Program-made: the position numbers and the translations under genes
Part shown: in pieces, positions 2,329 to 3,145 of the stretch
How positions within the stretch are numbered: position 1 is the first letter of the stretch
How the letters are laid out: each line of letters starts with the position of its first letter
Source: a virus
Lineage: Duplodnaviria; Heunggongvirae; Uroviricota; Caudoviricetes
Reading direction: 5' to 3' (one strand)
IMG/VR virus record: IMGVR_UViG_2579778748_000005
DNA length: 45,520 nt
Notes under the pieces: generated by a model
Databases searched by the model: none
Seen by the model: the letters and a program-made list of their open reading frames with translations, nothing else
What the model was told of the DNA's origin: nothing

Positions 2329-2395
2329 GTCGGGTCCTTCCTGGAATTATGGCCCGTTACGGGGCGGCGACCTCGCGGGTTTTCGCTATTTATGA
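2329..2395 (+). other. Satellite cos site copy A (cosQ-like + cosN GGGCGGCGACCT at 2362..2373), directly upstream of terS
   Basis: Sequence ...CCCGTTACGGGGCGGCGACCTCGCGGGTTTTCGCTATTTATGA matches the recalled lambda cohesive-end region. Confidence 0.75.
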
Positions 2396-2462
2396 CGTTT
2401 TTCCGTGAAGGTGACACCACCACCACTTGATTAATATTTAACCATGCAGTTAAGGTAACATT

Positions 2463-2897
2463 ATGATTGATAAAGCTTGTTTTGTAAGTCAGCAGGAAAT
2501 AGCTGAACATTTCAAGGTTAACAGAACCACTATTCGCGCATGGACCAAACAGGGGATGCCGTATCTTAATGCGGATCGCGGAAAGTCTGGCGGTTATCAC
2601 ATCGGGCATACATTGCTTTGGTCTTCAGGTAAAAGCCGTCTTGAGGCCATCAGATATCACGTAGAAACCAGTGCGCTGGAAAAAATTATGTTTGCCAGGC
2701 TGCTTTCATCTGAGCGTGACGAGTACTCCAGTGAAGAAACAGAACATCGATTTGATGAAGGTTTGCAGATTTACGGCTATTCACCGGAAGATGTGAGCAA
2801 GGCACGAAATAAAATGGCTGGCTTTCTGGCTGGGTGGCGTCATGCCGTAAGCGTTCGCCGTGCCAGCATGGAGCAATCAGCCGATACAGAACAGTAA
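2463..2897 (+). CDS. Small terminase-like protein with Nu1-type winged-HTH N-terminus, 144 aa (Rpp-like candidate)
   Basis: N-terminal ~55 aa (VNRTTIRAWTKQGMPYLNADRGKSGG) closely parallels lambda Nu1 (ASIRTIQNWQEQGMPVLRGGGKGN); C-terminal half unrelated to the Nu1 gpA-interaction region. Confidence 0.8.
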   Translation: MIDKACFVSQQEIAEHFKVNRTTIRAWTKQGMPYLNADRGKSGGYHIGHTLLWSSGKSRLEAIRYHVETSALEKIMFARLLSSERDEYSSEETEHRFDEGLQIYGYSPEDVSKARNKMAGFLAGWRHAVSVRRASMEQSADTEQ

Positions 2898-2959
2898 AGC
2901 CGATAACTTGTTAATCACTCGCAGCAATGCATGTGATTTGTGCACACTTTCGGTTAACT

Positions 2960-3078
2960 GGTTCGATGTCCGGTTTTAGTGTCTGTTTTTTGCGCATGTC
3001 CGGTTCATGGAAAGCATGTTTTTATATTTTTCATATGGTTAACTTGCAGAGAAACCGGACATGGATCCCGAAAAATTT
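2960..3078 (-). promoter_or_regulatory. cosB-like region with three CCGGACATG-type R-site motifs and an AT-rich bend, same architecture as the prophage cosB
   Basis: Motifs at about 2966, 2995 and 3055; roughly 80% identical by eye to prophage 41415..41558. Confidence 0.6.
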
Positions 3079-3145
3079 TCATAAATAGTGAAAACGCGCG
3101 AGGTCGCCGCCCCGTAACGGGCCATAATTCCAGGAAGGACCCGTA
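3079..3145 (-). other. Satellite cos site copy B (cosN at 3101..3112), inverted relative to copy A
   Basis: Reverse complement is identical to copy A over about 47 bp including cosN, then two mismatches in the next 18 bp. Confidence 0.75.

What the first reader, a model, noticed from the sequence alone, without database searches (positions are those of the whole stretch)
2329..3145. Two inverted cos sites flanking the satellite terS, each with a different cosB side
Seen: a 65-bp block containing cosQ-like sequence and cosN occurs at 2329..2395 and, reverse-complemented, at 3079..3145, with two mismatches. Copy A is followed by about 66 bp and then the satellite terS, in lambda cosN-cosB-Nu1 order. 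Copy B is followed on the opposite strand by a cosB region with three CCGGACATG R-like sites that closely resembles the prophage cosB. Inference: the island offers two packaging entry sites of opposite polarity, one matching the resident prophage terminase and one tied to its own TerS. This may widen helper range or reflect a module capture.
Basis: partly seen in the sequence, partly recalled or inferred. Interest (0 to 1): 0.7.

Follow-up and report, generated by a model that had tools for sequence, protein, structure and literature searches.

The report
Flipped two-cos PICI packaging cassette
This is the already published packaging module of an E. coli phage satellite (EcCICFT073-type island): two opposed lambda-type cos sites around the rppA gene. 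Two details look unreported: the cassette is flipped here, and one cos resembles that of a neighbouring prophage.

Summary
A 78-nt inverted repeat (2331-2408 / 3066-3143) carries cosQ-like sequence and an exact lambda cosN, and flanks a 144-aa ORF.

The module is already known. The ORF is RppA, with the same protein accession as CFT073 c1503. It mimics the TerS DNA-binding domain and is not a terminase small subunit. The two sites are the published cos1 (copy A inner side) and cos2 (copy B inner side) of EcCICFT073. Deletion and plasmid-transfer tests with lambda and phi80 have been done.

Three details were not found in the four papers read:
- **cos2 is phage-like.** Its cosB is 77% identical to the cosB of the adjacent potB lambdoid prophage, with R3 in the lambda position and the same R-site spacing. 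CFT073 carries the same prophage. The papers called both PICI cosB regions "completely divergent" from phage cosB.
- **The cassette is inverted here.** Relative to CFT073 it is flipped, with breakpoints inside the 47-bp identical cosQ-cosN core. Fifteen genomes, all with identical islands, are flipped; 41 are canonical.
- **The layout is general.** Nu1-type TerS PICIs have the same convergent two-cos layout (481 canonical, 5 flipped).

So inversion is recurrent but rare and fixed within lineages, not a fast switch. Helper-range widening through cos2 is plausible but untested.

The parts
1543..1578 (.). attL-side direct repeat of the island (partner at 12195-12230)
   Evidence: 36-nt repeat, 1 mismatch, seen as cross-matches in blastn against CFT073 and HM670. 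The island lies between phoQ and roxA.
2016..2297 (-). 93-aa conserved PICI gene (WP_000133413.1), the outer neighbour of arm A
   Evidence: Annotated CDS. No Pfam family. Conserved at about 90% in TerS-type PICIs, up to a point inside the arm.
2331..2408 (+). Arm A of the inverted repeat: cosQ-like TCGTCGGGTCCTTCC (2327-2341), cosN 2362-2373, I2-like stretch
   Evidence: Its outer side equals the cosQ side of published cos2 in CFT073, and its inner side equals published cos1.
2409..2426 (+). Proposed R3-PICI (bp 48-65 from the cosN nick), AGGTGACACCACCACCAC; the cos1-type cosB recognised by RppA-TerS
   Evidence: The position is taken from Murialdo and Feiss 2022. The sequence is identical to the published cos1. 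Swapping experiments showed that only the cosB of cos1 responds to RppA.
2463..2897 (+). rppA (redirecting phage packaging protein A), 144 aa
   Evidence: Same accession (WP_000565609.1) as CFT073 c1503. 6HLK RppC E=5e-31. R21, T22, L51 and F121 are present (read). No Phage_Nu1 domain.
2898..3065 (-). Phage-type cosB of copy B (published cos2): R3-like CATGTCCGGTTTCT at bp 50-63, an AT-rich stretch in the position of the lambda IHF site (I1), and R2/R1-like CCGGACATG and CCGGACATC
   Evidence: 77% identical to the potB prophage cosB. Identical to the CFT073 cos2 sequence.
3066..3143 (-). Arm B of the inverted repeat: cosN 3101-3112 and an exact lambda cosQ, TTTACGGGTCCTTCC, at 3133-3147
   Evidence: sequence read; cosQ definition from the papers' figure.
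3146..3172 (-). Stem-loop plus T-run (GCCGGAgaaaTCCGGC TTTTTT) ending the capsid operon just before arm B
   Evidence: Read from the sequence. A near copy lies at 5414-5443 (D6). The consensus scan did not list it.
3173..5001 (-). Island late genes next to the cassette: 137-aa protein, gpD-like decoration protein, gpE-like major capsid protein
   Evidence: Pfam HDPD 2.5e-17 and Phage_cap_E 2e-52. They correspond by product and gene order to CFT073 c1499/c1500, for which no phenotype was found.
41376..41625 (-). cos of the resident potB-type lambdoid prophage (cosQ, cosN 41559-41570, cosB with R-like sites at 41513, 41453, 41423)
   Evidence: The late region 15603-41620 is 99.8% identical to the CFT073 potB prophage.
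40866..41375 (-). Prophage TerS, 169 aa: Nu1-family C-terminal part, divergent N-terminal DNA-binding domain
   Evidence: Pfam Phage_Nu1 1e-18 over residues 49-150 only. No PDB hit to the lambda Nu1 DNA-binding domain. 100% identical to the CFT073 potB prophage TerS.

Best explanation
The region is the DNA-packaging cassette of an EcCICFT073-family phage-inducible chromosomal island (PICI), about 10.7 kb at roughly 1543-12230, between phoQ and roxA. The ORF is RppA. The two cos sites point towards each other.

Copy A carries the published cos1 cosB side, a single R3-PICI element followed by rppA. According to published experiments, RppA heterodimerises with the helper's TerS, stops it binding phage cosB, and redirects terminase to this site.

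Copy B carries the published cos2 cosB side. I infer that it is a complete phage-type cos (cosQ, cosN, R3 at the lambda distance, an AT-rich stretch where lambda has its IHF site, R2/R1). It belongs to the specificity class of the potB lambdoid prophage, which lies 39 kb away in this window. An unmodified terminase of that class could therefore package the island without Rpp.

Because the sites converge, cutting at one breaks DNA being packaged from the other. That would explain why deleting cos2 raises lambda-mediated transfer.

In this lineage the segment between the two cosN sites is inverted relative to CFT073. The most likely cause is a rare homologous exchange within the 47-bp identical cosQ-cosN core. 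Each cos keeps its own cosB, but rppA now faces against the otherwise unidirectional island operon.

Shown here: the identities, homologies, the inversion and its distribution. Shown in the literature: the roles of cos1 and RppA, and that both cos sites function. Inferred: cos2's cognate helper class, the interference between the two sites, and the inversion mechanism.
For: Identity of the module:
- RppA has the same accession as in CFT073 and matches RppC 6HLK.
- The published cos1 and cos2 sequences match the inner sides of copy A and copy B.
- The island has the same gene order and integration site as EcCICFT073.

Function, from the literature:
- Loss of cos1 lowers transfer, loss of cos2 raises it, and the double deletion abolishes it.
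- RppA stimulates only the cosB of cos1.

cos2 as a phage-type cos:
- 77% identity to the potB prophage cosB against 49 +/- 2% for shuffles.
- The R sites have the same 60/30 spacing.
- R3 lies at bp 50-63, as in lambda (sequence).
- That prophage cosB sits directly upstream of a Nu1-family terS.
- 33 of the 45 listed genomes with an identical cos2 cosB hold a second cosB-like place. Across all genomes, roughly 21% have only a partial match.

Generality:
- TerS-type PICIs have the same two convergent cos arms.
- Their second cosB is about 81% identical to the cosB upstream of terS/terL in an ST131 prophage.

Inversion:
- The window, once flipped in silico, equals HM670 over 2139 bp apart from the arm positions set by the chosen breakpoint.
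- CFT073 also has the inverted orientation relative to the window.
- Counts are 15 against 41 genomes, and all 15 carry one identical island.
- TerS-type cassettes: 481 canonical, 5 flipped, at two other integration sites.
Against: - No experiment links cos2 to a potB-class helper.
- In CFT073, deleting any prophage other than #4 (icd, phage-21-like) did not change island transfer, and deleting #4 abolished it. The potB prophage there is therefore neither necessary nor sufficient. It may be defective or may fail to induce the island.
- cos2's third R site is degenerate, and 23% of cosB positions differ from the prophage.
- Co-occurrence of the island with potB-class cosB is confounded by shared ancestry of the strains.
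- The inversion mechanism cannot be read from the sequence. All arm mismatches lie on the inner side of cosN, so homologous exchange and cos cutting with re-annealing predict the same product.
Confidence: 0.75

Rival explanations
1. cos2 (copy B) is a functionless relic of how the cassette was assembled or captured. A piece of a phage left end (cosN-cosB) was joined downstream of rppA, and it persists only because it does little harm.
For: Deleting cos2 does not reduce transfer by lambda or phi80; it increases it. In CFT073 only prophage #4 matters for transfer. The cassette has sharp, cos-bounded homology borders typical of module exchange.
Against: Two unrelated cassettes (RppA-type and Nu1-TerS-type) each keep a second, inverted cos. 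In each, the R3/AT-rich/R2/R1 layout is intact and matches a different prophage cosB class at 77-81%. The cos2 cosB is 100% conserved across 45 listed genomes with otherwise mosaic islands. A costly convergent site should be lost if it were useless.
Confidence: 0.17
2. The second cos is not an entry site for island packaging. It acts against the helper or as a regulator: a decoy that soaks up unmodified helper TerS/terminase, or a site whose cutting limits packaging.
For: It carries a helper-like cosB. The convergent geometry means cutting there aborts packaging started at cos1. Loss of cos2 raises transfer.
Against: The cloned cos2 alone makes a plasmid transferable, and the cos1 deletion mutant still transfers until cos2 is also removed. 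It is therefore a productive packaging site. One copy per island genome would be a weak decoy.
Confidence: 0.06
3. The inverted repeat is a programmed invertible switch (phase variation). It toggles rppA expression or packaging polarity within a population.
For: Both orientations exist in nature for two cassette types. The flip reverses rppA relative to the unidirectional island operon, and it differs from HM670 by nothing else over 2139 bp.
Against: Orientation is fixed within lineages. All 15 genomes with the identical island are flipped, all 41 others are canonical, and TerS-type cassettes are 481 to 5. The annotation shows no invertase gene in or beside the cassette. A promoter-like site upstream of rppA lies inside the cassette and would travel with it, although such sites were no more frequent than in shuffles.
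Confidence: 0.04

Closest known systems
EcCICFT073 packaging module: cos1, rppA (c1503), cos2 (Fillol-Salom et al. 2018 ISME J, PMC6092414; 2019 Mol Cell, PMC6739421)
   Same: Identical RppA protein. The cosB sides of both cos sites are identical to the published ones. Same island type, gene order and phoQ/roxA integration site. Same neighbouring potB prophage late region.
   Different: The cassette between the cosN sites is inverted, so the cosQ sides are swapped between cos1 and cos2 and rppA faces against the island operon. The arms are more alike here (91%, with a 47-nt identical core) than in CFT073 (82%). The rest of the island is about 94-95% identical and mosaic.
Phage lambda cos (cosQ-cosN-cosB with R3-I1-R2-R1) and Nu1/gpA terminase
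   Same: Exact cosN, exact cosQ in arm B, and R3 at the same distance from cosN in copy B.
   Different: The R-site sequence is CATGTCCGG-type, not lambda CGTTTCC-type. Copy A has only an R3-PICI element. No terminase genes are in the island. RppA replaces only the DNA-binding half of TerS.
E. coli PICIs that encode a Nu1-family TerS (for example in O157:H7 strain 7409 and UM146)
   Same: Same flanking genes (93-aa and 137-aa proteins, gpD/gpE homologues) and the same two convergent cos arms. One cosB is next to the island's own specificity gene and the other is phage-like. Flipped isomers also occur.
   Different: The inner gene is a 180-aa true Nu1-family TerS (Pfam 3.2e-23), and the second cosB belongs to another class (GATCTGA-type R sites).
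Packaging-specificity classes of lambdoid phages (lambda, 21, phi80, N15; Feiss laboratory work, reviewed in PMC9026076)
   Same: cosQ and cosN are conserved while cosB and the TerS DNA-binding domain vary together. The CFT073 helper phage 4 is described as TerS-21 type.
   Different: The potB-prophage class seen here has a TerS N-terminus with no detectable similarity to the lambda Nu1 DNA-binding domain. Its cosB is unlike that of lambda, phi80 or phi4 (about 50% identity).
SaPIbov4 / SaPIbov5 (cos-packaged staphylococcal islands)
   Same: Satellites that carry helper-type cos sites. SaPIbov4 is said to have two putative cos sites.
   Different: Gram-positive, with an unrelated cos sequence and HNH-dependent terminase. 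No Rpp. I did not examine them here.

Membership tests
EcCICFT073-type Gram-negative cos PICI | int - alpA - pri/rep core, about 10-15 kb, integrated at a site of its own and flanked by direct repeats | tested here: met
   Integrase, HTH regulator, primase and SSB are annotated. 36-nt att repeats lie at 1543 and 12195. About 10.7 kb. Same site as EcCICFT073.
EcCICFT073-type Gram-negative cos PICI | Unidirectional transcription of island genes (stated in PMC6092414) | tested here: not met
   rppA is on the + strand while the capsid, replication and int genes are on the - strand. This is explained by the cassette inversion. The annotated YlcI/YnfO gene is also on the + strand, as its counterpart in CFT073 is also opposite to the main direction.
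EcCICFT073-type Gram-negative cos PICI | Helper-type cosQ/cosN in the island | tested here: met
   Two exact cosN sites, with exact or near-exact cosQ.
EcCICFT073-type Gram-negative cos PICI | Helper-phage-dependent induction, packaging and transfer | not testable with these tools
   Published for the CFT073 island only.
Rpp (redirecting phage packaging) proteins | Sequence homology to RppA/B/C | tested here: met
   Accession identical to CFT073 RppA. RppC 6HLK E=5e-31 over residues 2-125.
Rpp (redirecting phage packaging) proteins | TerS-like winged-HTH N-terminus with R21-T22 and L51, the dimerisation residue F121, and no C-terminal TerL-binding domain | tested here: met
   The residues were read from the translation against those named. 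Weak hits to the lambda TerS DNA-binding domain (6HN7_B, 1J9I). 144 aa and no Phage_Nu1 hit.
Rpp (redirecting phage packaging) proteins | Binds helper TerS and redirects packaging to the island cosB | not testable with these tools
   Published for the identical protein.
   No Pfam Phage_Nu1 match for the 144-aa ORF. The prophage TerS (1e-18) and the O157 PICI TerS (3.2e-23) do match.
Lambda-type cos site | cosN GGGCGGCGACCT with cosQ about 15-30 nt upstream | tested here: met
   Both copies.
Lambda-type cos site | cosB with R3 at about bp 48-65, an IHF site, and R2/R1 | tested here: inconclusive
   Copy B has the R3-like site at bp 50-63 and two more R-like sites with the same spacing as the prophage cosB, but the third site is degenerate and binding is untested. 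Copy A has only the proposed R3-PICI.
Lambda-type cos site | Cut by terminase; supports packaging | not testable with these tools
   Published for the identical cos1 and cos2 sequences on plasmids and in the island.
Recombinase-driven invertible DNA switch (Hin/Gin/Fim type) | Dedicated invertase or tyrosine recombinase next to short inverted repeats; mixed orientations within a clone | tested here: not met
   The cassette holds only rppA, and no invertase is annotated in the island. Orientation is uniform within the identical-island lineage (15 of 15). Heterogeneity within a single culture could not be tested.

The most novel reading that the evidence does not exclude
The convergent cosN sites make the cassette a module that terminase can cut out. 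Cutting both sites would free a fragment with two identical 12-nt cohesive ends, which could re-anneal in either orientation or into another cos-cut island. That would be inversion and cassette exchange (rpp against terS, with different phage-type cosB) without a recombinase. The phage-type cos would also give each island an Rpp-independent route into a second class of helper.
Probability: 0.12. Interest if true: 0.65.

Novelty: already known. Interest (0 to 1): 0.3.

Why it matters
The finding as stated adds nothing to Fillol-Salom et al. 2018 and 2019. Two opposed cos sites around the island's specificity gene are already described, and the suggested experiments are already done.

The small residue could interest satellite and packaging specialists:
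- **cos2 is not an orphan.** It is a full phage-type cos of a third lambdoid specificity class, carried by a prophage that sits next to the island even in CFT073.
- **The design recurs.** TerS-encoding PICIs have the same "own cosB plus phage cosB, convergent" design with another phage class.
- **A direct test follows.** The island may have two entry routes for two helper classes. This can be tested with a potB-class phage and the existing cos1 and cos2 deletion constructs.
- **An odd result is explained.** Convergent sites interfering with each other would account for the gain in transfer when cos2 is deleted.

The inversion is a structural curiosity. It shows that the cos arms recombine in nature.

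Tried and rejected
- **Fast phase-variable switch: rejected.** All 15 genomes with the identical island are flipped, and all 41 other RppA-type islands are canonical. TerS-type cassettes are 481 canonical to 5 flipped.
- **Assembly artefact: rejected.** There are 15 independent complete assemblies, and the arms are only 78 nt.
- **The ORF as a true TerS: rejected**.
- **Orientation-dependent rppA expression: inconclusive.** The promoter scan found only 9/12-match sites, no more frequent than in shuffles. One lies inside the cassette upstream of rppA.
- **Homologous exchange against cos cutting and re-annealing: not separable.** All arm mismatches lie on the inner side of cosN, so both mechanisms predict the same product.
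- **Rpp loci in other species: nothing found.** The search for related loci with RppA in genome contigs returned no relatives. I ran no further search on widening it.
- **Isolated phages with the potB-class cos: few.** The phage collection holds only PhiR12-type phages with a full-length match (86.6%). Phage 21 and others match only cosQ, cosN and the first ~45 nt beyond cosN.
- **O157-type second cosB in isolated phages: weak.** The only hit was SerU-LTIIb at 70.6%, just upstream of its terS. The E. coli genome search gave the clearer prophage match.

Full report
**Setting.** The window is E. coli chromosome. phoQ ends at 1461. A 10.7-kb island follows, bounded by 36-nt direct repeats at 1543-1578 and 12195-12230. 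It ends with a tyrosine integrase next to roxA. pepT and potAB come next, then a lambda-like prophage running to the window end. The annotated genes of an identical genome (WP4-S17-ESBL-08) are integrase, HTH regulator, Icd-like protein, DUF4222, primase, SSB, PerC, a gpE-type major capsid protein, a gpD-type decoration protein, a 137-aa protein, the 144-aa ORF and a 93-aa protein (Pfam). This is the organisation and the integration site of EcCICFT073 in strain CFT073.

**Observation.**
- The repeat is real. Arms 2331-2408 and 3066-3143 are 78 nt long and 91% complementary.
- Positions 2331-2377 are identical in both arms.
- The lambda cohesive-end sequence GGGCGGCGACCT is exact in both arms, in opposite orientation, and once more at the prophage cos. 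That is 3 matches against 0.3 expected.
- Read on the minus strand, copy B aligns with the prophage cos well beyond cosN. Positions 43-172 are 77% identical, against 49 +/- 2% for shuffles and 47-51% for copy A.
- The R-like sites have the same 60/30-nt spacing in both.
- The first R-like site lies at bp 50-63 from the nick. This is the position of lambda R3 (sequences; lambda R3).

**What the ORF is.** The 144-aa protein has only weak HTH hits in Pfam and no Phage_Nu1 domain. Against solved structures it matches RppC (6HLK/6HN7) at E=5e-31. It matches the DNA-binding domain of lambda TerS only weakly. RefSeq gives it the same accession as the CFT073 protein, and the published RppA alignment begins with the same 50 residues. 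The functionally tested residues R21, T22, L51 and F121 are all present. It is therefore RppA. According to Fillol-Salom et al. 2019, RppA heterodimerises with the helper TerS, blocks recognition of phage cosB, and directs terminase to the island.

**The two cos sites are published.**
- The 2018 and 2019 papers describe two cos sites in EcCICFT073. Both are functional when cloned.
- Deleting cos1 lowers transfer by lambda and phi80. Deleting cos2 raises it. Deleting both abolishes it.
- Only the cosB of cos1 responds to RppA.
- The sequences in their Figure S1A identify the inner side of copy A (spacer plus the start of rppA) as cos1, and the inner side of copy B as cos2.
- The finding as worded is therefore already known, and its proposed experiments have largely been done.

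**What I did not find in the four papers read (PMC6092414, PMC6739421, PMC9026076 and bioRxiv 10.1101/2022.07.18.500453).**

1. *cos2 has a phage-like cosB.*
   - The papers state that both PICI cosB regions are "completely divergent" from phage cosB. They compared lambda, phi80 and the CFT073 helper phi4. The Murialdo and Feiss review treats only the cos1-type R3-PICI.
   - Yet the cos2 cosB is clearly homologous to the cosB of the potB lambdoid prophage in this window.
   - CFT073 carries the same prophage beside the same island. Its late region is 99.8% identical, its 169-aa TerS is 100% identical, and its cosB is the same.
   - That TerS has a Nu1-family C-terminal part, but its N-terminus shows no detectable similarity to the lambda DNA-binding domain. 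This fits a separate specificity class.
   - Partial matches to this cosB occur in about 1,185 of 5,426 complete E. coli genomes. Of the 45 listed genomes with an identical cos2 cosB, 33 hold a second such place. This is suggestive only, because the strains are related.

2. *The design is general.*
   - PICIs with the same flanking genes but a true Nu1-family TerS (180 aa, Pfam 3.2e-23) occur in O157:H7 strain 7409 and in UM146. They have the same two inverted cos arms around the gene.
   - Homology with the RppA-type island stops inside the arms, at 2395-2405 on the left and 3079 on the right. The unit between the cosN sites therefore behaves as an exchangeable cassette.
   - Their second, inverted cos carries another R3/R2/R1-like cosB. 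It is about 81% identical to the cosB immediately upstream of terS/terL in an ST131 prophage.

3. *The cassette is inverted in this window.*
   - In CFT073 and HM670, rppA runs with the capsid operon. Here it runs against it.
   - Flipping the window segment in silico reproduces HM670 over 2139 bp. The only differences are the arm positions set by my choice of breakpoint, so the exchange lies within the 47-bp identical core.
   - Among complete genomes, 15 have the window orientation and 41 the CFT073 orientation. All 15 carry one 100%-identical island.
   - For TerS-type cassettes, 481 genomes are canonical and 5 are flipped. I verified the flip in two islands at other integration sites, each with two inverted cosN.
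   - Inversion has therefore arisen at least three times. It is rare and fixed within lineages.

**Mechanism.**
- Both sites point into the cassette.
- Packaging from cos1 (RppA-TerS bound at R3-PICI) or from cos2 (unmodified TerS of the cognate class bound at R3/R2/R1) would each run through the cassette, around the concatemer, and back to its own cosQ-cosN.
- Each route would give a full island unit of opposite polarity.
- If both sites are cut on one molecule, the 740-bp cassette is released and packaging aborts. This explains the published gain in transfer on deleting cos2.
- Keeping a costly second site in two unrelated cassettes argues that it pays off with other helpers.
- These steps are inference.

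**Evidence against.** Deleting CFT073 prophages other than #4 had no effect on transfer, and deleting #4 abolished it. The potB prophage is therefore not a working helper in that strain under those conditions.

**Inversion mechanism.** Homologous exchange in the 47-bp core is the simplest reading. The arms are more alike in the lineage that flipped (91%) than in CFT073 (82%). Within other islands the two arms also tend to share the same variant, which suggests conversion between them. Cutting both cosN sites and re-annealing would give the same product, because the inner fragment would carry two identical cohesive ends. The sequence cannot exclude this.

**Verdict.** The feature is already known. 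The modest new points are the phage class of cos2, the generality of the convergent design, and the flipped isomers.

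Noticed in passing
window 1847-1865, 1946-1964, 2000-2018 (weaker copy at 225-243): Three direct copies of CGAAAATATCAACGGGTTA-like sequence, spaced 99 and 54 nt, between attL and the 3' end of the 93-aa gene (D1). They could be protein-binding sites at the island end, for example integrase arm sites.
   Followed up: no
window 2409-2426; L005 about 4082-4098 (minus strand): At the R3-PICI position the RppA-type cos1 reads ...CACCACCACCAC. 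The TerS-type PICI reads GGTGGTGGTGGTGG at the same distance from cosN, which is the same triplet repeat on the other strand.
   Followed up: no
window 3142-3171 and 5414-5443: Two near-identical stem-loop plus T-run elements on the minus strand (D6). One ends the capsid operon just before cosQ, and the other lies upstream of the 68-aa/capsid gene block. The consensus terminator scan did not list the first one.
   Followed up: no
window 3599-5001: The island encodes its own gpE-type major capsid protein and gpD-type decoration protein but no portal, protease or terminase. The literature reports no phenotype for the CFT073 counterparts c1499/c1500 and packaging into full-size capsids.
   Followed up: partly
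window 41620-45520 versus L008: The resident prophage is 99.8% identical to the CFT073 potB prophage from potB up to its cos (15603-41620). Immediately beyond cos (the lysis and early side) identity drops to 81-85% or is lost. The mosaic junction is therefore at cos.
   Followed up: partly
L004 13529-13605 / 14263-14339; L006 3249-3304 / 4101-4156: The stretch between cosQ and cosN differs between islands. Within an island the two arms tend to share a variant: AATTATGGCCCG in both arms here, TATGGACCCG in both arms of UM146, and one of each in CFT073. This suggests gene conversion between the arms.
   Followed up: partly
table (genomes DETEC-P649, DETEC-P666, AREA_499, NR3736): Four of the 15 genomes with the flipped, identical island show only one cosB-like place. 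They probably lack the potB-class prophage, so the island and the prophage are not strictly linked.
   Followed up: no
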